From the NCBI GenBank assembly GCA_903847405.1, contig CAINDP010000034.1, positions 27,950 through 91,949 on the forward strand: a stretch of 64,000 nt of DNA, given 5' to 3'. Position 1 is the first letter of the stretch. Every line of letters begins with the position of its first letter. The notes below the pieces were generated by a model. The model had not been told where the DNA came from. It worked only from the letters and a program-made list of their open reading frames with translations, and ran no database searches. This DNA is from an uncultured Myxococcales bacterium (GTDB taxonomy: Bacteria > Myxococcota_A > UBA9042 > DTJE01). This document shows positions 24,175 to 37,820 of this stretch, one piece after another. Both the position numbers and the translations under genes were made by a program.

Positions 24175-24181
24175 CCCATGC

Positions 24182-24209
24182 TTGACCTGCCCTCCCCCTC
24201 GGCTACAAT
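24182..24209 (+). promoter_or_regulatory. Sigma70-like promoter
   Basis: TTGACC-16 bp-TACAAT upstream of a GGAGG RBS and the GTG at 24241. Confidence 0.55.
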
Positions 24210-24240
24210 GCGAGGGGATCAATTTCCGTGGAGGTGGCCG

Positions 24241-24801
24241 GTGTCTGCAAGCCGTTTCACGGCCCTGTTGGGGGGGGCTGCCCTCGCCCTGCTGGTCGTC
24301 GCCTGTCAAACCAAGGACGATTTCGAGCAGTGCGCCATGACCGAAAGGGTCCAGGCAGACTGCAAGGCAGCCATCGCGGTCGGCAGCGACCAGTGCAGCG
24401 AGGCCGAGGTCTTCTGCTACGACTCGTGCGTGGTGAAGGACCATCCTCAGTGCGTCGATGGCCCCTGCGTCATGTACGAAAGCCGGTTGATTGGCGAAGT
24501 GCAGCCGGTCAACTCGGCCGAGGTGTCCTTCTGCACGATCCCCTGCCACGGGGAAACGTGCACGGCCGACGCGACCTGCCGCAAGATCCTCAGCCTGAAG
24601 ACGTCGTGCACGAAGGATCTGGAGTGCACGGCCAACTCGCCGTGGTCCCGCTGCGAAACGCCTCGTTTCTGCGAAACCAGCAGGAAGGAATGCGAAACGG
24701 CGGCGGACTGCACCGGCGAAGCGTGCCTGCCCGACGACGCGGCCGCGAAGTTCTGCACCTACAAGTTCTGCATTCCGGAAAAGTACACGCCCAGCGTCTG
24801 A
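24241..24801 (+). CDS. Cys-rich lipoprotein
   Basis: GTG after GGAGG; lipobox VVAC; Cys-rich throughout. Confidence 0.7.
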   Translation: MSASRFTALLGGAALALLVVACQTKDDFEQCAMTERVQADCKAAIAVGSDQCSEAEVFCYDSCVVKDHPQCVDGPCVMYESRLIGEVQPVNSAEVSFCTIPCHGETCTADATCRKILSLKTSCTKDLECTANSPWSRCETPRFCETSRKECETAADCTGEACLPDDAAAKFCTYKFCIPEKYTPSV

Positions 24802-26619: not shown

Positions 26620-26715
26620 GACGGGATTGTGGGCCATCGGCCGGAGGAGCGCAACCGGGAACGGCGTCGGGTTCGTGATTGGAACGGGGTTTTGGGGCGG
26701 GCCGGGTGGGACGGG

Positions 26716-27345
26716 GGAGGACGTGACTTCGTGGAGGGCCGGGTCCGGGGGTGCCGGGAGAGGACGTGACTCCCTGGAGGGCCGGGTCCCGGTGGTGCCA
26801 CGGGGGACCGTTGTCCGGCCGGGGGCTCTGCCCCCGGCCGGCAACTGCCTACTCGGCGCGGGCCGTTCATTATTTCCCCCGCAAGGTGGCCCGCGCCTCC
26901 GGAGGCCCCCCCGTTGGCACCCCCGGCCCCGGCCCGCGGTTGTCCGCAGAGTTGGGCACCCCCGGACCCGGCCCGCGGTTGTCCGTCGAGGTGGGGCTCC
27001 CGGACCCGGCCCTCGGTCGTCCGTCGTGCAGGCACCCCCGGACCCGGCCCGCGATCGACCGTCGAAGTCGAACCCGGCGCCTGGGGTCGGCGGGTGCGGG
27101 AGGCGGCCGAGTGGCGGTGCCTGCGGCGCTCCAATGTTTCGGGATCAGTTTGCTGGGGGGGCTGCTTCGCTTCCTCAATGCGACATGCGACCGCGGGCCG
27201 GGTCCGGGGGTGCTCCGGAGGGGCTCCGCAGCCGGCGGTACCTTGCGGGGGCAAACACGATCCCGCCGGCGAGGACAGAGGTGCGAACGGGGGCATCGCC
27301 CCCGGGCGCACCGTCCCCGGAGGGGCACCCCCGGAACCGGCCCTC
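26716..27345. repeat. Cluster of about 8 copies of GGCACCCCCGGACCCGGCCC in both orientations
   Basis: Reverse copies near 26736, 26779 and 27195; forward copies at 26916, 26955, 26994 and 27031 (period 37-39 bp) and near 27324. Confidence 0.8.
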
Positions 27346-27374
27346 AGGGGCGGAACGCTATCAACAGCGGGCTC

Positions 27375-29224: not shown

Positions 29225-30415
29225 CTAGATTCCCTGCCGCAGGGTCCGGGCCATGCAGCGGGCGAGGTTCCCGTCGTCGTCGCGGTCGTGCATGGAGCCC
29301 CCCATGCAGGCCGCCCACTCCCGGCAGGAGGCGCAGGGCCCCCGGCGCAGGCGGGCGCGGTCGCGGAAGGGCCGGAAGCGGTCGCGCCAGACCTCCGACA
29401 CGCGCTGGGTGCCGGCGTCGCCCTGGACGTTGAACCCCGAGTGGATGACCGGGCAGCCGACGATGCGGCCGTCGTGCTCGATGCCCAGGACCGTCAGGCC
29501 GGCCCGGCAGTACAGGAAGGACCCGCGCAGCAGGCCCCCCTCCCACTCCAGGCCGCACCAGCCGTCGTCCACGAACTCGATTTCGATCGTGCGCCGGCCC
29601 TCGCGAAACGCCACGCGCTGCTCGGCCAGCCAGGACAGGACGCGGCGCAGATCCCCGGGCGTCAGCACCTCCTCCGGCGCATCGGCCGCCCGCCCCACGG
29701 GGAAGATCGCCGACAGGCGGGCGAACCGGATGCCCAGGTCCTCGAACCGCTGGAACACGCCGGGCACCTCGGGCAGGTTCAGGGGCGACGCAGCGCAGAT
29801 GGTCGTCAGGCCCAGTTCGGGGTACCGCTGCTGCACGTACTCGATCGCGCGCCAGGTCCAGGCCCCTGCCGAGGCGTCGCCACGCAGGACGCGCTGGGCC
29901 GGGCCCGTTCCGTCCACCGAGATCGTGGGGCACCGCATGCCCGCCTCCACCAGGCGGTCGATCAGCGTCAGGTCCCGGCCATAGGCGACGCCGTTGGAGT
30001 CAACGGCCACGGTCCGGAATCCCAGGCGCACCATGTGCCCGACGATGTCCACCAGGTCCGGCCGCAGGGTCGCCTCGCCGCCCGTGATGCCGATCATGAT
30101 CGACGCCGGGTCGAAGTCCTCGGCCATCTCCGCGAAGATGCGCTTCACCTCGTCGGTGGACAGGTCCGCGCCCGGGCTTTCCTCGGAGGGCAGCACGCAG
30201 TACCGGCAGCGCAGGTTGCAGCGCCGGGTGGCCATCCAGATGACGTAGCGCAGCGTGGGGTTCGCCAGGACGTGATGGAAGTTCGACCGCCACTCGGCGA
30301 GGCTGGCGCGGAAGGCCGGGTCCCGGACGCGGGCGGCCTGGATCGCCGGCAGGGACGCGGCGAAGGCCGCCGACGGGGCACAGGGCTGGCCGGGGTCGCT
30401 GGGCCGGTCGGGCAT
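29225..30415 (-). CDS. Radical SAM/SPASM enzyme resembling the rSAM/lipoprotein-system family
   Basis: CNLRCRYC, ITGGE and ISVDG; SPASM motifs CRAG..GC and CASC...CMGG...C; start overlaps the stop of the upstream lipoprotein (TGATG). Confidence 0.85.
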   Translation of the reverse strand: MPDRPSDPGQPCAPSAAFAASLPAIQAARVRDPAFRASLAEWRSNFHHVLANPTLRYVIWMATRRCNLRCRYCVLPSEESPGADLSTDEVKRIFAEMAEDFDPASIMIGITGGEATLRPDLVDIVGHMVRLGFRTVAVDSNGVAYGRDLTLIDRLVEAGMRCPTISVDGTGPAQRVLRGDASAGAWTWRAIEYVQQRYPELGLTTICAASPLNLPEVPGVFQRFEDLGIRFARLSAIFPVGRAADAPEEVLTPGDLRRVLSWLAEQRVAFREGRRTIEIEFVDDGWCGLEWEGGLLRGSFLYCRAGLTVLGIEHDGRIVGCPVIHSGFNVQGDAGTQRVSEVWRDRFRPFRDRARLRRGPCASCREWAACMGGSMHDRDDDGNLARCMARTLRQGI

Positions 30416-31272
30416 CACGGCGTCTTCACGCAGGCGGTAGTGATGCCCACGTCCGCGCAGGTCGCGCCCTCGGGGCATGGCGTCCCGGCGGGATCGCACA
30501 CGATCGGCAGGCAGACCTCGGTGGGCGCGATGCAGAACAATCCGGGCGGGCAGTATTCCCGGCAGAAGTGCTGGGGCGACGCGCAGTCCTGTGCCGATGC
30601 GCACCGCTGCCCGAGGCCGACCAGGGGCGGGGTCAACCGGGCGCACACCTTCATCGTGGACCCGCTGGACTTCAGGTCATAGGGAAAGCAGACCGCCCCC
30701 TCGGGGCACGCGTCGTTCGTCCCGCAGGGCTTCGGGATGCAGATCGGCTCGTTGCACCCGGGAGCCGGGGCGATGCAGAACAAGGCGACTTCGCAGAAGT
30801 ACTCCTGGCCGCAGTCCGCGTCCGCCACGCACGGCGCCAGGAACCCGCCCAACGCGGGCACCGGCGACACGTCGGTCCCCGGGTCGAACGGAGCGATCGC
30901 GATGATGTCCGGCGGCGCATCGGACGGCCCCGGGTCGAACGGCGCGATGGCGATCATCTCGGGCGGCAGGTCGCCGGGTCCCGGATCGAACGGGGCGATC
31001 GCGATCATCTCGGGCCAGGCGTCGATGGGCCCCGGGTCGAACGGCGGGGCGATGGCGATGATTTCGGGATCCACCCAGCCGTCGGGCATGTCGGGGCGGT
31101 CGGCCACGATGTCCGCGGGAGCGTCGGCCATATCCTTGCCGTCGTCCTTCGCGCACCCGGTCAGCCCCAGGGGCGCCAGGATCATCAGCGCCCCGCCCGT
31201 GTACATCCGCCGGCGGTCCATCCACCGGGGACGACGCGATGCCTGCGCGGAACACTCCCCGTGCTTCGCCAT
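30415..31272 (-). CDS. Lipoprotein with four IAIAP(P)FDPG cassettes and a Cys-rich C-terminal domain; candidate rSAM substrate
   Basis: Arg-rich N-terminus, lipobox LTGC, four 17-18 aa repeats at 30878-31071, Cys-rich tail. Start codon uncertain. Confidence 0.7.
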   Translation of the reverse strand: MAKHGECSAQASRRPRWMDRRRMYTGGALMILAPLGLTGCAKDDGKDMADAPADIVADRPDMPDGWVDPEIIAIAPPFDPGPIDAWPEMIAIAPFDPGPGDLPPEMIAIAPFDPGPSDAPPDIIAIAPFDPGTDVSPVPALGGFLAPCVADADCGQEYFCEVALFCIAPAPGCNEPICIPKPCGTNDACPEGAVCFPYDLKSSGSTMKVCARLTPPLVGLGQRCASAQDCASPQHFCREYCPPGLFCIAPTEVCLPIVCDPAGTPCPEGATCADVGITTACVKTP

Positions 31273-31372
31273 GATCCCTGCCTCGCCGAAATCCACGTCC
31301 ATCATACGAAAAATGGGGGGACAGAGTCCACGTTTCCGGCTACCTTCGCCCCAACACCCGGAGGCACCCGAC

Positions 31373-33359: not shown

Positions 33360-35432
33360 CTAGAAAGGGGTGACCACGGTCGGAGGCGGCTGCTGGGGCG
33401 GCGGAGGCGGAGGCGGCGGCGGCGGCACGGGCGGCGGCGGCGGCGGCGGCGGCGCCGGGTCGAACAGGGGCATGAAGTAGACCATTTCCGACGTCACGAC
33501 CGGCGGGGTCGTGACGGTGCCCGGCGGGTAGACCCAGTCCAGGAACTCCTGGTTCAACTTGCGGTACATCCAGTAGGACTCGATGCGCAGTTCGGTCACG
33601 CCCGGAGGCAGCACGAACGCGTAGTCGTCCTCGGTCACGCGGTGGAACTCGATCGCCCGGGTGACGATCTTTTCCTTGATCTGCCAGACGCGGTCGCGGT
33701 CGACCGGCTTGCCGTCCTCGCCCATCATGTACCCGCCCATCCGGTGGGCCTCCGGGTCGATCGCGTGGCCCGCCCCGATTTCCCCGACGTTGAACAGGAC
33801 GTTCCCCGCCTGATCGGTCACCTTCACCTTCTGCCAGGCCTCGATCAGGTCCAGGGGCCCGCCGGGGAACAGGTGATCGACGGTCGCGTTGATCGTCAGG
33901 ATCCGGAACTTGAACTCGGCGCCGACGACCGGGTCCGACATGGGCATCGCCTTCTGGACGATCCACAGCATCCGGTTCTTGGCCAGGTCGCGGGGCTCCC
34001 AGAAACTGCCCCAGCCCTCCAGTTGCACCGGCAGCAGTCCCCGGCTGAACTTCTGGAAGATTTCAACCACGTCCGGCTGCCCCAGCACCGTCGGCATGAT
34101 CGAGTTGGTTCCCGGGAAGATGTGGTTCATTTCCTTGCTGTTCAGGCCCAACTGGTCCCGCGGCTGCATGTGGCAGTGGATGCACTTCGGCTTCACCAGC
34201 GGGGTGTCCTTGGTCGGCTTGATCTGCAGGCGATGGCAGGCCTGGCAGTACTCGTCCTCGAAGTACAGCGGCTTGCGGAACACCCGGGCGTGGCCGAAGG
34301 GGTTCAGTTCGATCAGCCGGCGGTTCAGGGGCCCGATCGCGTCGCGCCCGCCCTCGTCGAACATCCGCAGGTGGTTCAGGTCCAGTTTGACCGTGATGTC
34401 GCTCTTGCGCGGATCCTCCCAGGGACGGACCGAGTCGATCTGGTGGCAGAAGGTGCAGGAGTAGTTGATTTCGGTGAAGGCGCCCGACAGCTTCTTGGTG
34501 CGGTCGAACATCATCCGGGGGTAGTGGCAGCCCCCGCAGGTGATCTGGTTGTGCTCGCCGATTTCCGACGCCAGCAGCGCGACGTTCTTCTGCAGGTACG
34601 TCGTGTGCATCGAGCGCCCGTGCGCCGATTTCGTCAGGTCGCTGAGGAGGTTCGGATGGCATCCGGCGCCGTCGCCGCAACTGTCGGTGCGGGTGGCCAG
34701 GTCCGGCTCGTTGAAATCCTTGGGCAGGATGTCCTGCTCATCGGGACCGCGACGCTCGATCGCGAACGTCGACAGGTGGAAACGGTACAGCGGCGATTCG
34801 GGGCGGTTGACCAGGTCCAGGCCCAGGATCAGGACCAGAAGGACCGCGACCGAAATCCAGATCCTGCGGTTGGCGGCGAAGACCGGCGCGGGCGCGGGAA
34901 CGTCCGCCCCGCCCGCCGACTTCGAGGCCCGCCAGTCCGCGAACGCCCAGGCGATCAGAACCGGCACGAACACGAATCCCGCCGCACGGTGCAGGACCAG
35001 CACGCCCTCCAGGCCGCGCCCGCCCAGCGCGATGCCGAACAGCGTTCCGGTGACCGCCATGACCGTGAAGGTGTAAAGGGTGACGAGGTCCAGGAACCGG
35101 GCCAGCGGCCTGCGGTGCCGGATCGCCAGGAACAGCGGCCACGCGCCCAGCACCAGCATGTTCCCCATCAAGGACGGCCAGCGTGCCGACGCGCCCGTGA
35201 ACACGGCGGTCGTGACGAGGGCCGGAAGGACCGCCCGCAACCCCAGGTCGCGCGTGGTTTCCGGCGTGCGCCGGACCAGCAGCCGGGCCACGAAGGGTAT
35301 CGAGGCCAGGATCCCGACCAGGGGGTGGAACAGCAGGTTTGCCTTGTAGACCAGCGTCCAGGACTCGGAAAACAGGACCCAGAAGCCCGTGACGATCGCC
35401 AGGAACATGAGCGGTCCGCTGCGCCTGGTCAT
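33360..35432 (-). CDS. Membrane-anchored multiheme c-type cytochrome 1
   Basis: ATGA overlap with the upstream gene; N-terminal TM block; CGDGAGCH, CGGCH, CTFCH, CQACH and CIHCH; DHLFP domain; Pro-rich tail. Confidence 0.85.
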   Translation of the reverse strand: MTRRSGPLMFLAIVTGFWVLFSESWTLVYKANLLFHPLVGILASIPFVARLLVRRTPETTRDLGLRAVLPALVTTAVFTGASARWPSLMGNMLVLGAWPLFLAIRHRRPLARFLDLVTLYTFTVMAVTGTLFGIALGGRGLEGVLVLHRAAGFVFVPVLIAWAFADWRASKSAGGADVPAPAPVFAANRRIWISVAVLLVLILGLDLVNRPESPLYRFHLSTFAIERRGPDEQDILPKDFNEPDLATRTDSCGDGAGCHPNLLSDLTKSAHGRSMHTTYLQKNVALLASEIGEHNQITCGGCHYPRMMFDRTKKLSGAFTEINYSCTFCHQIDSVRPWEDPRKSDITVKLDLNHLRMFDEGGRDAIGPLNRRLIELNPFGHARVFRKPLYFEDEYCQACHRLQIKPTKDTPLVKPKCIHCHMQPRDQLGLNSKEMNHIFPGTNSIMPTVLGQPDVVEIFQKFSRGLLPVQLEGWGSFWEPRDLAKNRMLWIVQKAMPMSDPVVGAEFKFRILTINATVDHLFPGGPLDLIEAWQKVKVTDQAGNVLFNVGEIGAGHAIDPEAHRMGGYMMGEDGKPVDRDRVWQIKEKIVTRAIEFHRVTEDDYAFVLPPGVTELRIESYWMYRKLNQEFLDWVYPPGTVTTPPVVTSEMVYFMPLFDPAPPPPPPPPVPPPPPPPPPPQQPPPTVVTPF

Positions 35433-37666
35433 GCGTCCTGACTCCCTGCCCGACGGAACGAGGCCGCCACGGCGATCAGCGAGATCCCGGCCGCGATCAT
35501 CGCGAGCCCGGAATACCCCACCAGAAGGATCGGGGGCTTGAAGCAGAACAGCGAGAAGCCGCCACCCAGCAGCCACCAGGCCAGGGCGACGTGCTGCAGT
35601 TCCTCCTTGACCCGGGCCAGCACGGTGGAAAGGGCCATCCCCGCCCCGAGGCCCGCGGCCAGCGGAGCGACATTGACCCACTGCGAACGGTGCAGTCCGT
35701 ACAGGGCGGCAAGCCCGCCCGCGAACAGCACGGCCGCCAGCGCCGCCACGATCGGCGAGCGGGCCCAGCGTCCGACGGCCAGGAAACCGATGGCGGTGCC
35801 CGCGACGAAGACCATTTCCAGGACGTTCCACGACGGTATCCCGAAGGGCGCGAGGATCAGCGCGTTGTGGCAGGCGAAGATGGTTTCGGCAAGGCCGGCC
35901 GCCAGCCCGGCCCCTGCGGCAGCCGCGCCCCACCCCAGGCCGACGCCGTTGCGGGCCCGGGTGCGACGGACGAAGGACCGGATGACCAGCAGGAACAGGG
36001 CCGACAGCCCCAGGTGGATGAACCCGATCGTCCGCTGCATCGAGTTCTGCAGGAACGGCTTGTCGTCGGAGGTCCGGCAGGATTCCCGGTCCTGGGGGGT
36101 GATCTTCACGAAGCCGCTGAGCCGCTGCAGGTGCCGGTCGGTTTCCGCGATCCGTTCCCCGTCCCGCGACGCCACGACGAAGAGCAGCGGGGAGCCGCTG
36201 AGCGGGAAGAACGACAGCGTGGTCCAGTAGACCAGCGTCGATACGTCGTCCGGGAAACTGGCGACGAACCAGTCCGCCTCGCGCGTTTCCGACGACCCCC
36301 AGTCGATGAACAGGACCCCGCCCGGCTTCAGCAGGCGATCGAAGATCAGCCGCGTCCCCTCCTCGGTCAGCAGGAAGTGCTCGGCGAACACGTAGCTGCG
36401 GGGCAGGATGTAGGTCTTGGTCCCGATGCCGCTGTAGAACACGTAGTCGTACTTCTTGCCCTGGTCCGCCAGTTCCTCGAGGTTCGTCCGCCAGTCCCCC
36501 GTCAGGACCAGGGAGGTCGGCCGCGACATCGCCTTCCCCAGGTACTCCTCGTGGCCCGGGCGCAGGAATTCGGCGATCTTCGGGTCGTACTCGATGGTCG
36601 AGTTGTTGTTCTCGCCGCCCAGGAACAGTTCGATCGCACGGACGTTGGTGGCGATGGACCGGCCGACGTCGATCACGTCCAGGGGCTGCCGATCCGCCGG
36701 CGGAATCACGGCCGCGCCCGAGGCTGCCGGGGCCGTTGCGACCGGGGACTTCCCGAGCCCCTCGCCGACACGCTCGGGCTCCAGGACCACCTTGTTGCCG
36801 GTGCCCTCGCCGTGCTGCGACACCTTGTGGAAGGGGTCCAGGATCGCCTTGTACATGAACTCGGTTTCGGCCGGGACCCAGTCGGTGTCCCTGCACGAGA
36901 ACATCATCATGATGTTGTCCACGACGACACCCAGGCAGCGGTCGTCCATGAACGTGATGAAGTCGCACTTGACGTCGTGGCCGTAGCCGCCGTCCAGGTA
37001 CTTGTACTCGGTCAGGCCGAAGTTGAAGAACGTCCGCTGCGGATAGACCTGGAACAGCGTGACGACGGTCACGATCGCGGCGACCCCGACCGCCGCCGGA
37101 ATCGCGCGCAGCAGCAGCACCAGCGCCAGGCACAGGCCGCCCGCGAACAGCAGGTGCGGACCCAGCGGGCTGAACCCGTAGGCCAGGCCGACACCCAGGG
37201 CCTGGCCCACCAGGAACGCCCCGATCGGCCCCCGAAGGCGTCCGGCCCCGGCCAGGATCGAACCGAACCCCCACCCCATCGGCAGGAACAGCGCCGGCAC
37301 GACCAGCACCGTGATCAGCAGCGAGATCTGGTTCGCGATGCCGGATTTCGGCAACGGAACGGGGTAGTAGAGCTTGCTCATGATGGCCATGCTGGTGAAG
37401 TCGCGGTTGGTGAAGGCGGCATAGACGACGGCCAGGGCCGCAACCGCCATCACCGCTTCGCCCAACCGCCCCAGCCGGCCCCGCTTTGCGGCCACCCCGA
37501 ACGCGAACAGCGTCATGGCCAGCCCGATTTCCAGGGCGGACCCGAAACTGACCATCATGAGGGGTTCGAGGACGCTGATGTGGGAAATCAGGACGAACCC
37601 GGCAACCAGACCCAGGGCAGCCGCCCGCCACCACACACGCACGGAACCCGCATCGCCCGACGGCAT
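35429..37666 (-). CDS. Membrane protein with a central spermidine-synthase-like (class I SAM-fold) domain
   Basis: TM blocks at both ends; IEYDP, LLTEEG...LLKPGGVL and TSDDKPF motifs typical of TM-fused aminopropyltransferase-like proteins. Confidence 0.65.
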   Translation of the reverse strand: MPSGDAGSVRVWWRAAALGLVAGFVLISHISVLEPLMMVSFGSALEIGLAMTLFAFGVAAKRGRLGRLGEAVMAVAALAVVYAAFTNRDFTSMAIMSKLYYPVPLPKSGIANQISLLITVLVVPALFLPMGWGFGSILAGAGRLRGPIGAFLVGQALGVGLAYGFSPLGPHLLFAGGLCLALVLLLRAIPAAVGVAAIVTVVTLFQVYPQRTFFNFGLTEYKYLDGGYGHDVKCDFITFMDDRCLGVVVDNIMMMFSCRDTDWVPAETEFMYKAILDPFHKVSQHGEGTGNKVVLEPERVGEGLGKSPVATAPAASGAAVIPPADRQPLDVIDVGRSIATNVRAIELFLGGENNNSTIEYDPKIAEFLRPGHEEYLGKAMSRPTSLVLTGDWRTNLEELADQGKKYDYVFYSGIGTKTYILPRSYVFAEHFLLTEEGTRLIFDRLLKPGGVLFIDWGSSETREADWFVASFPDDVSTLVYWTTLSFFPLSGSPLLFVVASRDGERIAETDRHLQRLSGFVKITPQDRESCRTSDDKPFLQNSMQRTIGFIHLGLSALFLLVIRSFVRRTRARNGVGLGWGAAAAGAGLAAGLAETIFACHNALILAPFGIPSWNVLEMVFVAGTAIGFLAVGRWARSPIVAALAAVLFAGGLAALYGLHRSQWVNVAPLAAGLGAGMALSTVLARVKEELQHVALAWWLLGGGFSLFCFKPPILLVGYSGLAMIAAGISLIAVAASFRRAGSQDA

Positions 37667-37820
37667 TGGACCACCCCGCGTTCGCCGGACGGTATCGAAT
37701 CGCCACAATTGCGTCAAGCGAGGCGGCCCGCGAGGGCGCAGGGCCCGCGTGGTTGACGCATGGGGCTCCCCTTCAATAGAATCCGCCCATTCCGCGGTTC
37801 GGGCCGCCGGAGAACCAACC

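What the first reader, a model, noticed from the sequence alone, without database searches (positions are those of the whole stretch)
29225..31272. Radical SAM/SPASM enzyme coupled to a lipoprotein with repeated IAIAP cassettes: candidate new protein-modification system
Seen: a 1-bp stop/start overlap. The lipoprotein has four cassettes P(E/D)(I/M)IAIAP(P)FDPG with varied codons, which suggests selection on the peptide, and LFCIAP occurs twice more in its Cys-rich domain. Known: the enzyme's motifs (W..T.RCNL.C, CRAG, WRDRF.PFRDR...C..C...C.G..MH.RD) resemble, from memory, the rSAM/lipoprotein-system family TIGR04133, which is related to tyramine-excising spliceases that act on XYG sites. Seen: this partner has no YG dipeptide. 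Inference: the enzyme makes a different modification on an aliphatic/Pro/Phe motif of an exported lipoprotein.
Basis: partly seen in the sequence, partly recalled or inferred. Interest (0 to 1): 0.75.

Follow-up and report, generated by a model that had tools for sequence, protein, structure and literature searches.

The report
Radical SAM enzyme with IAIAP-repeat lipoprotein
A lake myxobacterium encodes a radical SAM enzyme directly coupled to an exported lipoprotein whose flexible tether repeats the peptide IAIAP, where all related enzyme-lipoprotein pairs repeat a tyrosine-glycine site instead, so this lineage probably makes a protein modification not yet described.

Summary
Window 30415-31272(-) encodes a 285-aa lipoprotein with four P(E/D)(I/M)IAIAP(P)FDPG cassettes and no YG. 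Its stop overlaps by one base (TGATG) the start of a 396-aa rSAM/SPASM gene at 29225-30415(-).

The enzyme's best family is TIGR04133, matched full-length at 202.9 bits against a 425-bit cut-off, so it is a relative and not a member.

- All 9 loci that hold an intact or contig-truncated ortholog (72-88% identity) have an IAIAP-cassette lipoprotein immediately upstream.
- All 22 loci with paralogs (31-36% identity), two of them in this genome, have an adjacent lipoprotein with xxYG(P) repeats. This is the motif type of tyramine-excising spliceases.
- Two annotated TIGR04133/TIGR04134 pairs and a TIGR04103 locus also carry YG.
- The IAIAP clade is monophyletic (100/99) and derived. It was found in one family only (6 of 401 phylum genomes).
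- It has lost residues invariant in all YG enzymes and has gained Cys287.
- The cassettes lie in a predicted disordered tether.

Aligned on the following proline, Ile takes the place of Tyr and Ala that of Gly. I read the pair as a dedicated maturase and substrate whose target motif has switched. The chemistry is unknown; epimerisation, Ile excision and a -2 Da change are the candidates. This is a new variant of a known kind.

The parts
31301..31330 (-). Promoter-like site (TGGACT-18-TATGAT) upstream of the lipoprotein gene
   Evidence: Consensus scan found 1 site, against a mean of 0.1 in shuffles. This is a pattern match only.
30415..31272 (-). Lipoprotein gene (285 aa), the putative substrate
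   Evidence: Translation. It has 22 homologs, all unnamed or 'hypothetical', and only 24 hits among 1.84 billion representatives. No curated family matches it.
31153..31272 (-). Signal peptide with lipobox LTGC40; its n-region RRPRW.DRRR.Y.GG..M.LAP is unusually conserved
   Evidence: Alignment A2 has Y24, G26, G27, M30, L32, A33, P34 and C40 invariant in 19 sequences.
30832..31152 (-). Pro/Asp/Glu-rich tether (residues 41-147) that carries the cassettes
   Evidence: AlphaFold2 gives pLDDT below 50 for nearly all of residues 26-137. The tether has no YG in 24 of 24 family members.
31030..31068 (-). Cassette 1, PEIIAIAPPFDPG
   Evidence: I74 is at least 90% conserved, and A75, P77 and D79 are invariant in A2.
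30979..31014 (-). Cassette 2, PEMIAIAPFDPG
30928..30963 (-). Cassette 3, PEMIAIAPFDPG
30877..30912 (-). Cassette 4, PDIIAIAPFDPG
30418..30831 (-). Cys-rich folded domain (residues 148-285; the protein has 21 Cys in all, one of them the lipobox Cys40)
   Evidence: AlphaFold2 predicts beta-rich structure with block-mean pLDDT of 67-90. No solved fold matches at E <= 0.001; the best is Dickkopf at E 0.25.
30766..30783 (-). LFCIAP motif 1 inside the Cys-rich domain
   Evidence: C166 and I167 are invariant and P169 is at least 90% conserved in A2.
30523..30540 (-). LFCIAP motif 2 inside the Cys-rich domain
   Evidence: C247 is invariant and I248 is at least 90% conserved in A2.
29225..30415 (-). 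Radical SAM/SPASM enzyme gene (396 aa)
   Evidence: Pfam Radical_SAM scores 60.7 bits and SPASM 26.2 bits. TIGR04133 scores 202.9 bits against a 425-bit cut-off. The AlphaFold2 model has mean pLDDT 91.1. Its nearest solved folds are SkfB, BlsE, anSME, SuiB and PqqE.
30197..30220 (-). CxxxCxxC radical SAM cluster motif (C66, C70, C73)
   Evidence: These Cys are universal in 53 aligned relatives.
29555..29557 (-). Cys287 codon, a clade-specific cysteine
   Evidence: Cys in 18 of 18 IAP-clade rows and in P0032. It is Leu in 97% of 34 YG-type/TIGR04133 rows and Tyr in the Nostoc TIGR04103 enzyme.
29255..29509 (-). SPASM cysteines C303, C321, C361, C364, C370 and C387 (the fourth Cys of CX2CX5CX3C is Ser374)

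Best explanation
The two genes form a dedicated maturase-substrate pair.

Shown:
- A cytoplasmic rSAM/SPASM enzyme gene is translationally coupled to a lipoprotein gene.
- The lipoprotein's disordered, Pro/Asp-rich tether carries 3-6 copies of P-(E/D)-x-I-A-I-A-P-(P)-x-D-x-G.
- The enzyme belongs to the TIGR04133-like superfamily of lipoprotein-associated rSAM enzymes.
- All other examined members of that superfamily sit next to lipoproteins with x-Y-G(-P) sites, the motif type of tyramine-excising spliceases.
- This clade is a derived offshoot in which enzyme and motif changed together.

Inferred:
- The enzyme binds the still unexported pre-lipoprotein, possibly through its unusually conserved signal peptide acting as a leader.
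- Its 5'-deoxyadenosyl radical abstracts a hydrogen at the beta-branched Ile/Val of each x-I-A-P core.
- Aligned on the following Pro, that Ile/Val occupies the Tyr position of x-Y-G-P, and Ala occupies the Gly position.
- The modified protein is then exported and lipidated.

The chemical outcome is not known. My ranking, as shares of all possibilities:
- About 0.3: Calpha epimerisation of Ile (L-Ile to D-allo-Ile), with the clade-specific Cys287 as hydrogen donor. This would make the tether protease-resistant.
- About 0.2: splicease-like backbone excision of the Ile-derived amine, giving an alpha-keto-beta-amino residue.
- About 0.15: another -2 Da change (cyclopropanation, desaturation or cross-link).
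- The remainder: the cassettes are not modified.
For: Tight gene coupling is conserved.
- The rSAM start lies from one base before to about eight bases after the first base of the lipoprotein stop codon in all 9 ortholog loci.

Enzyme clade predicts motif in 31 of 31 loci.
- All 9 loci with an intact or contig-truncated ortholog have an IAP-cassette lipoprotein upstream: L001, L009-L013, L039, L040 and L042. L009 and L039 are near-copies.
- All 22 paralog loci have an adjacent YG-repeat lipoprotein. Twenty were found by regex. L015 and L031 were confirmed by inspection.

Records annotated as family members carry YG.
- The Treponema and Parabacteroides TIGR04133 enzymes have TIGR04134 lipoproteins that read C-YGMP and CEYGSP just after the lipobox.
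- A Nostoc TIGR04103 locus has a Nif11 precursor ending IALYGLPPELF.
- Spliceases act at XYG (PMC11414181, PMC9811515).

Phylogeny.
- The IAP clade has support 100/99.
- It groups with P0032 and with rSAM-M50 fusions at 100/99.
- With the root on the TIGR04103-like group, one change of the YG label suffices.

Clade-specific residues.
- E61, S75 (HCGS) and L116 are invariant in YG enzymes, including the TIGR04103 one. In the IAP clade they are M, L and T.
- C287 is gained.

Selection on the peptide.
- The IAIAP core is kept across 28 occurrences with synonymous codon variation.
- There are 3-6 x[IV][AV]P cassettes in 23 of 24 family members and no YG in any tether.

Accessibility.
- The cassette region is predicted disordered (pLDDT below 50), whereas the enzyme model is confident at pLDDT 91.

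Only the pair is conserved.
- The downstream amidohydrolase matches in only 3 of the 9 ortholog and remnant loci searched.

Precedent.
- RS-SPASM enzymes modify Ile or Val in repeated motifs: TigE on TIGSVS and TvgB on TVGG (abstracts of PMC10878394 and PMC9062424).
Against: - There is no experimental or expression evidence of any kind.
- The splicease activity of the YG-type (TIGR04133-like) enzymes is itself inferred from their partners' motif. It is not shown in any paper I could read.
- The IAP and YG lipoproteins are not demonstrably homologous. hhalign gives probability 10% for the whole proteins and 14% for the signal peptides. The Ile-for-Tyr and Ala-for-Gly register therefore rests on anchoring at the following Pro, not on an alignment.
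- Every IAP-type lipoprotein also has a conserved Cys-rich domain with C-I-(A/V)-P motifs, which could be the real or an additional target.
- Cys287 could be an auxiliary-cluster ligand rather than a hydrogen donor, because the fourth Cys of the SPASM CX2CX5CX3C motif is Ser374.
- By fold, the epimerase EpeE ranks only 36th to 41st.
Confidence: 0.6

Rival explanations
1. The enzyme is a Tyr-independent splicease. It excises the N, Calpha and side chain of Ile from A-I-A. It then joins the two carbonyls, which leaves an alpha-keto-beta-amino residue derived from the preceding Ala. The expected mass change is about -85.09 Da per cassette.
For: - The nearest relatives all pair with x-Y-G(-P) proteins.
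- The cassette keeps the Pro(-Pro) that follows YG in those proteins and in the Nostoc precursor.
- The Tyr position holds beta-branched Ile or Val, which has a tertiary Cbeta-H.
- Spliceases tolerate many residues at position X (PMC9811515 passages).
Against: - Both the Tyr and the Gly of the motif are replaced.
- Residues invariant in all YG enzymes are lost.
- The sister lineages (P0032, L043/L044) also lack YG partners where these could be seen.
- In every paper I read, all reported splice sites are XYG.
Confidence: 0.2
2. The cassettes are only a structural or sorting linker. The enzyme modifies another part of the lipoprotein. One candidate is the Cys-rich domain, for example by thioether formation at the conserved C-I-(A/V)-P motifs. 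Alternatively the enzyme modifies a different protein.
For: - All IAP-type lipoproteins carry 20-35 Cys with invariant C166-I167 and C247.
- Many SPASM enzymes make Cys-derived thioethers. SkfB and CteB are among the nearest folds.
Against: - Among the YG-type pairs, nine small partners have no Cys-rich domain at all and share only the repeated motif.
- The cassette core is more strictly conserved than its spacers.
- Enzyme clade and tether motif co-vary in 31 of 31 loci.
Confidence: 0.15
3. The enzyme is a decaying or non-catalytic paralog that is kept only through operon linkage, and the lipoprotein is not modified.
For: - The stem branch is long and otherwise invariant residues are lost.
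- One related locus (L045) holds a broken copy.
Against: - All three rSAM Cys, the GGE motif and six SPASM Cys are kept in 31 orthologs that have diverged to 42-85% identity, with 65% mean column identity.
- The AlphaFold2 model is confident.
- The pairing is conserved across three genera.
Confidence: 0.05

Closest known systems
TIGR04133 / TIGR04134 rSAM-lipoprotein system (NCBIfam 'hypothetical equivalog' models; function uncharacterised as far as I could find)
   Same: - An rSAM/SPASM enzyme is encoded next to a lipoprotein gene.
- TIGR04133 is the best-scoring family, matched full-length (residues 39-391 to profile positions 7-348 of 350).
- The six SPASM Cys pattern is the same.
   Different: - The score is 202.9 bits against a 425-bit cut-off.
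- The partner does not match TIGR04134, whereas real partners do at 43.7 and 207.1 bits.
- Real partners have YG directly after the lipobox. This one has none and carries IAIAP cassettes instead.
- About 18-20 positions invariant in the family are changed.
Tyramine-excising spliceases (PlpX/RhaX type, TIGR04103) and spliceotides
   Same: - Both are rSAM/SPASM enzymes acting on a ribosomal protein at a short repeated or tag-like motif followed by Pro.
- Both are binary enzyme-substrate systems.
- In spliceases a leader helix activates the enzyme (PMC11414181). Here the conserved signal peptide may play that part.
   Different: - TIGR04103 scores only 102.7 bits against a 725-bit cut-off.
- There is no XYG site and no Nif11/NHLP leader.
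- The substrate is an exported lipoprotein.
- The chemistry is unknown.
RS-SPASM cyclopropyl synthases TigE and TvgB
   Same: They modify Ile or Val inside short tandemly repeated motifs, TIGSVS and TVGG (abstracts of PMC10878394 and PMC9062424).
   Different: - Their defining Gly-Tyr-Trp motif is absent from P0001 and from all 31 orthologs.
- TigE was not among the solved-structure sequence matches at E <= 1e-5.
- The substrate here is a lipoprotein, not a small peptide.
rSAM peptide epimerase EpeE (YydG)
   Same: - It is an rSAM enzyme with C-terminal auxiliary clusters.
- A mutant of its Cys223 is named in the PDB titles.
- From recall only: it acts on aliphatic residues of a ribosomal peptide, and Cys223 is the hydrogen donor.
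   Different: - The fold match is only distant (ranks 36-41, E about 1e-8).
- Whether Cys287 is equivalent to the EpeE donor Cys was not tested.

Membership tests
TIGR04133 (rSAM_w_lipo) | HMM score at or above the curated cut-off of 425 bits | tested here: not met
   The score is 202.9 bits, E 6.4e-60, and 202.8 bits on the genome. The same-genome paralogs score 347.6 and 275.2 bits, also below the cut-off.
TIGR04133 (rSAM_w_lipo) | Radical SAM CxxxCxxC plus a SPASM domain | tested here: met
   Pfam Radical_SAM and SPASM score above their gathering cut-offs. C66/C70/C73 and six SPASM Cys are conserved.
TIGR04133 (rSAM_w_lipo) | Adjacent lipoprotein gene | tested here: met
   The lipobox protein lies immediately upstream with a 1-base overlap. 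This arrangement is conserved in all 9 ortholog loci.
TIGR04133 (rSAM_w_lipo) | Partner belongs to TIGR04134 (lipo_with_rSAM) | tested here: not met
   P0002 has no TIGR04134 hit at E <= 1. The positive controls P0281 and P0282 hit at 43.7 and 207.1 bits.
Spliceases (TIGR04103, PlpX type) | HMM score at or above 725 bits | tested here: not met
   The score is 102.7 bits.
Spliceases (TIGR04103, PlpX type) | XYG splice motif in the substrate | tested here: not met
   P0002 has no YG, and none of the 24 family members has YG in the tether.
Spliceases (TIGR04103, PlpX type) | Loss of a tyramine equivalent (-135 Da) with alpha-ketoamide formation | not testable with these tools
   This needs co-expression and MS/MS.
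RS-SPASM cyclopropyl synthases (TigE/TvgB) | Gly-Tyr-Trp motif whose Tyr ligates auxiliary cluster I (PMC10878394 abstract) | tested here: not met
   GYW is absent from P0001 and from all 31 rows of alignment A1.
rSAM epimerases (EpeE/YydG type) | Catalytic hydrogen-donor Cys near the active site | tested here: inconclusive
   A clade-specific invariant Cys287 exists. Its position relative to SAM could not be measured. EpeE is only a distant fold match.

The most novel reading that the evidence does not exclude
This clade is the first rSAM enzyme of splicease ancestry that works on a purely aliphatic site. It would either excise an isoleucine-derived amine from the backbone of an exported lipoprotein (Tyr-independent protein splicing) or install several D-residues or cyclopropyl residues in a lipoprotein tether. 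Either outcome would be a post-translational modification of a full-size envelope protein that has not been described, using the signal peptide as the leader.
Probability: 0.3. Interest if true: 0.9.

Novelty: new variant of a known kind. Interest (0 to 1): 0.7.

Why it matters
- Splicease genome mining has used YG-rich neighbours as its hook (PMC10849128 passage). A lineage whose target motif has become I-A is invisible to that search.
- This genome offers a natural experiment. It holds two YG-type pairs and one IAP-type pair of the same superfamily, so specificity and chemistry can be compared directly.
- If the IAP enzyme performs backbone excision at Ile, it widens the sequence space for enzymatic beta-amino-acid or ketoamide installation in proteins.
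- If it epimerises or cyclises, it shows how an rSAM scaffold changes reaction outcome together with its substrate motif.
- It also points to rSAM modification of full-size, exported lipoproteins before secretion, which is a little-studied kind of envelope protein maturation.

Tried and rejected
Tools that did not run or gave nothing:
- Complex prediction (enzyme alignment A1 + lipoprotein residues 1-140 + SAM + three 4Fe-4S) never ran. One search gave no usable answer. There is therefore no docking evidence either way.
- No RNA holder was listed for the locus, and read laying was not used.

Comparisons that were not significant:
- hhalign of IAP lipoproteins against YG lipoproteins gave probability 10%.
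- hhalign of their signal peptides gave probability 14%.
- I therefore do not claim that the partners are homologous.
- The ESM Atlas gave only scores below 0.9, to Myxococcota Cys-rich proteins.
- The lipoprotein fold search gave nothing at E <= 0.001.

Ideas dropped:
- The downstream amidohydrolase (Amidohydro_3) as a third component. It matched in only 3 of the 9 ortholog and remnant loci searched.
- P0278, a 1003-aa hit of the lipoprotein profile at E 1.8e-4, is a TAL-effector-like repeat protein. It matched through its EQVVAIAS repeats and is spurious.
- Phocaeicola locus L058 has no upstream lipoprotein ORF of 60 aa or more. Downstream was not examined.

Literature searches:
- 'TIGR04133': 0 papers.
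- 'spliceotide' + 'lipoprotein': 0 papers.
- 'IAIAP': 19 papers, none relevant among the 10 listed.
- SPASM + lipoprotein + radical SAM + precursor: 9 papers, none on such a system by title or abstract.
- The key survey (Scott et al., Chem 2022) and Haft & Basu 2011 are not held. I cannot say whether the YG-lipoprotein type is already catalogued there.
Full report
**What is in the window**

On the minus strand, an ATG at 31272 opens a 285-aa protein. It has three parts:
- a signal peptide ending in the lipobox L-T-G-C40;
- a 107-residue Pro/Asp/Glu-rich stretch;
- a Cys-rich C-terminal half.

The stop codon TGA shares its last base (30415) with the ATG of a 396-aa protein that runs to 29225.

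The four cassettes lie at 31030-31068, 30979-31014, 30928-30963 and 30877-30912. They read PEIIAIAPPFDPG, PEMIAIAPFDPG, PEMIAIAPFDPG and PDIIAIAPFDPG. They use different synonymous codons. LFCIAP occurs twice in the Cys-rich half. The protein has no YG.

In a six-frame translation of the whole 5.65-Mb assembly, IAIAP occurs 4 times in this ORF and 9 times elsewhere, always singly.

A promoter-like site lies at 31330-31301. The flanking genes are housekeeping or unrelated: RNase PH, a RidA/chorismatase-like protein, an amidohydrolase, an amine oxidase and GTP cyclohydrolase II.

**The enzyme**

Pfam finds Radical_SAM and SPASM domains.

In NCBIfam the best model is TIGR04133 ('rSAM_w_lipo'). 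It matches end to end (residues 39-391 to profile positions 7-348 of 350). The score is 202.9 bits against a curated cut-off of 425. Next come TIGR04103 (102.7 bits, cut-off 725) and other SPASM families.

An AlphaFold2 model from 31 orthologs is confident (mean pLDDT 91.1, pTM 0.90). Its nearest solved folds are generic SPASM/twitch enzymes: SkfB, BlsE, anSME, SuiB, PqqE, ChlB and CteB.

No solved structure matches at E <= 1e-5 other than PqqE, SkfB, GDGT-MAS, MoaA, anSME and entry 8wm2.

Conserved cysteines are C66/C70/C73 and C303, C321, C361, C364, C370 and C387. The fourth Cys of the canonical CX2CX5CX3C motif is Ser374.

**Relatives and their neighbours (the core result)**

The enzyme has about 30 close relatives at 58-85% identity. 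Identity then drops to 44% and 31%.

The same genome holds two full-length paralogs at 35-36% identity.
- The one on contig C13 has, immediately upstream, a 280-aa Cys-rich lipoprotein with VLYGP, AYYGP, VGYGPP and ASYGPPP.
- The one on C99 has, immediately downstream, a 111-aa lipoprotein with QVLYGPPP, QMMYGP and QVLYGPPP.

In 41 related genomes, 20 had a match at E <= 1e-30.
- Five other genomes hold orthologs at 72-88% identity.
- The rest of the matches are paralogs at 31-36%.

Adding metagenome loci gives 9 loci with an intact or contig-truncated ortholog: L001, L009-L013, L039, L040 and L042. L041 duplicates L012, and L009 and L039 are near-copies.
- All 9 have a lipoprotein with (E/D)xIAIAP(P)xDxG cassettes directly upstream.
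- In all 9, the enzyme's start lies from one base before to about eight bases after the first base of the lipoprotein's stop codon.

All 22 paralog loci have an adjacent lipoprotein with repeated xxYG(P/A/V/I).
- Twenty were found by pattern.
- L015 and L031 were confirmed on inspection.

One further locus, L045, holds only a broken enzyme gene (residues 86-125 and 293-396) and no lipoprotein match.

Eight further enzyme clusters and lipoprotein clusters share the same longest-contig length. This suggests that they lie on the same contig, but I could not see those contigs.

**What annotated family members look like**

A tblastn of the C99 paralog against plasmid records found annotated TIGR04133 enzymes in Treponema saccharophilum and Parabacteroides distasonis. 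Each lies beside a 'radical SAM-associated putative lipoprotein'.
- These lipoproteins match TIGR04134 at 43.7 and 207.1 bits.
- They read ...TSC-YGMP... and ...SCGENGEIPCEYGSP..., so YG lies just behind the lipobox.

The same search found a Nostoc 'nif11-class peptide radical SAM maturase 3' (TIGR04103, the splicease class). It lies next to a Nif11 precursor ending ...GGRGSIALYGLPPELF.

The literature I could read says the following.
- Spliceases excise a tyramine equivalent at XYG. All of Tyr except C1 is removed, and a new C-C bond joins C1 of Tyr to C1 of the upstream residue (passages of PMC9811515; PMC11414181, part 1 of 4 read; passages of PMC10533398 and PMC11626197).
- A survey mined YG-rich neighbours of rSAM-SPASM enzymes in 189 genera (passage of PMC10849128). 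The survey itself is not held.

So x-Y-G followed by Pro is the common feature of all partners in this superfamily except the clade in the window. P0002 and the myxobacterial YG lipoproteins match no curated family.

**Phylogeny**

*Careful tree.* This was a maximum-likelihood tree of 38 rows, rooted on the TIGR04103-like group.
- The IAP clade has support 100/99 (ultrafast bootstrap / SH-aLRT).
- Its sister is P0032 (100/98).
- Next come two enzymes fused to a Peptidase_M50-like membrane domain, L043 and L044 (100/99).
- YG-type enzymes fall into at least three other lineages. One of them contains the TIGR04133-annotated enzymes.
- One change of the YG label suffices on this tree.

*Quick trees.* Trees of 62 and 64 rows agree.

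*Caveat on labelling.* In the careful tree, 5 of the 9 rows labelled IAP have neighbours that I saw. The other 4 were labelled by identity alone (58-70% to P0001). The same holds for 7 of 18 rows.

*Distribution.* In an even sample of the phylum, the ortholog (E <= 1e-80) was found in 6 of 401 genomes. All six belong to one family and three genera.

*Origin.* Record titles call the relatives uncultured Myxococcales. The DNA is held by lake-water metagenome runs.

**Residues that changed with the motif**

I compared 18 IAP-clade rows with 34 YG-type/TIGR04133 rows and the Nostoc TIGR04103 enzyme (an earlier version is).

| Position | YG-type, TIGR04133 and TIGR04103 enzymes | IAP clade | Note |
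|---|---|---|---|
| 61 | E, before the cluster motif | M | invariant in YG enzymes |
| 75 | S, in H-C-G-S | L | invariant in YG enzymes |
| 116 | L or F, after GGE | T | shared with the sister lineages |
| 136 | G | V | |
| 284 | E (Asn in the Nostoc enzyme) | D | shared with the sister lineages |
| 287 | L (Tyr in the Nostoc enzyme) | C | invariant in the IAP clade and in P0032 |

There are also several small insertions. T116, G109, I110, D284 and R147 are shared with the sister lineages.

Upstream of both M50 fusions lies a conserved short ORF (...ETI[ED][FV]KWLEKLEM[ST]...NTVM[ST]H[WF]P) without YG. The whole branch therefore seems to have left YG substrates.

**The lipoprotein family**

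A word-indexed search found 22 homologs, none named.

An exhaustive profile search of 1.84 billion representatives found 24 at E <= 1e-3. One of these is a spurious TAL-effector-like repeat protein.

Every member with an N-terminus has three features.
- A strikingly conserved signal peptide, R-R-P-R-W-L-x-R-R-x-L-Y-A-G-G-A-L-M-V-L-A-P-x-G-x-x-G-C. Y24, G26, G27, M30, L32, A33, P34 and C40 are invariant in 19 sequences.
- A tether with 3-6 cassettes in 23 of 24 members and no YG in any of the 24.
- One or two Cys-rich modules that contain C-I-(A/V)-P.

The invariant cassette core is x-(I/V)-A-P. The following position is aromatic in only about half of the cassettes.

AlphaFold2 predicts the signal peptide and tether as disordered (pLDDT below 50 for nearly all of residues 1-137). 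It predicts the Cys-rich half as a beta-rich fold with block-mean pLDDT of 67-90. No solved structure matches that fold.

Profile comparison does not show homology between IAP and YG lipoproteins (probabilities 10% and 14%).

**How it most likely works**

Shown:
- a conserved, translationally coupled enzyme-lipoprotein pair;
- perfect co-variation of enzyme clade and tether motif (31 of 31 loci);
- purifying selection on the cassette peptide;
- a disordered, accessible tether;
- an intact rSAM/SPASM catalytic scaffold with clade-specific changes.

Inferred:
- The cytoplasmic enzyme acts on the pre-lipoprotein before export.
- The conserved signal peptide serves as its recognition element, by analogy with the leader helix that activates binary spliceases (PMC11414181).
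- Hydrogen abstraction occurs at the Ile/Val of x-I-A-P. Anchored on the following Pro, this residue sits where Tyr sits in x-Y-G-P, and Ala sits where Gly does.

The outcome cannot be read from sequence. I rank the candidates as follows.
- Epimerisation first. It rests on an aliphatic target, a gained invariant Cys that could be the hydrogen donor, and the EpeE precedent. The EpeE details are recalled apart from the PDB titles.
- Splice-type excision of Ile second.
- A -2 Da change third. Ile and Val in repeated motifs are cyclopropanated by the RS-SPASM enzymes TigE and TvgB (abstracts of PMC10878394 and PMC9062424). Their defining GYW motif is absent here.

About a third of the probability stays with 'the cassettes are not the target or are not modified'.

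**Comparison, novelty and verdict**

The system works like the TIGR04133/TIGR04134 rSAM-lipoprotein pairs and, more distantly, like spliceases. It fails the membership tests of both: HMM cut-offs, partner family and YG motif.

It is a new variant of a known kind. It is a narrow, derived clade in which substrate motif and enzyme changed together.

None of my literature searches found this pair or motif described. However, the main splicease survey could not be read.

Interest is 0.7. The comparative evidence is unusually clean, and a single co-expression and MS experiment would decide between ordinary and new chemistry. As yet no chemistry is shown, and the complex prediction could not be run (see Tried and rejected).

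Noticed in passing
L043:498-3062(+) and L044:2513-5014(+), with upstream short ORFs at L043:227-451 and L044:2298-2486: The sister lineage of the IAP clade is an rSAM/SPASM enzyme fused to a Peptidase_M50-like membrane domain. It is preceded by a conserved short ORF ending ...ETI[ED][FV]KWLEKLEM[ST]...NTVM[ST]H[WF]P without YG. This is possibly an undescribed RiPP-like system.
   Followed up: partly
L002 (G000 contig C13) 1477-3456(-) and L003 (G000 contig C99) 1441-2921(+): The same genome holds two YG-type rSAM-lipoprotein pairs. Across genera their lipoproteins share an unusual conserved N-terminus, MLMVLMALI.LGR....TRWLWL.LSGG, ahead of the lipobox.
   Followed up: partly
L045:2501-2947: This metagenome locus holds a remnant of the IAP-clade enzyme gene. 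Only residues 86-125 and 293-396 match, which indicates an internal deletion. No lipoprotein match is present.
   Followed up: no
window 26680-27360: An intergenic stretch is packed with a GC-rich element of about 20 nt (GGCACCCCCGGACCCGGCCC). Four copies lie at 38-39-nt spacing, and further copies lie in inverted orientation.
   Followed up: no
window 24178-24801(+): A second Cys-rich putative lipoprotein (207 aa...LLVVAC...) has no Pfam family. No rSAM gene lies next to it.
   Followed up: no
window 33360-37706(-): The C-terminal part of this long ORF carries several CxxCH haem-binding motifs and ends in a run of more than 20 prolines. It was not analysed.
   Followed up: no
L015:2624-3363(+): Two YG-lipoprotein genes lie in tandem downstream of one YG-type enzyme. 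The second is interrupted by a masked stretch of 100 N.
   Followed up: no
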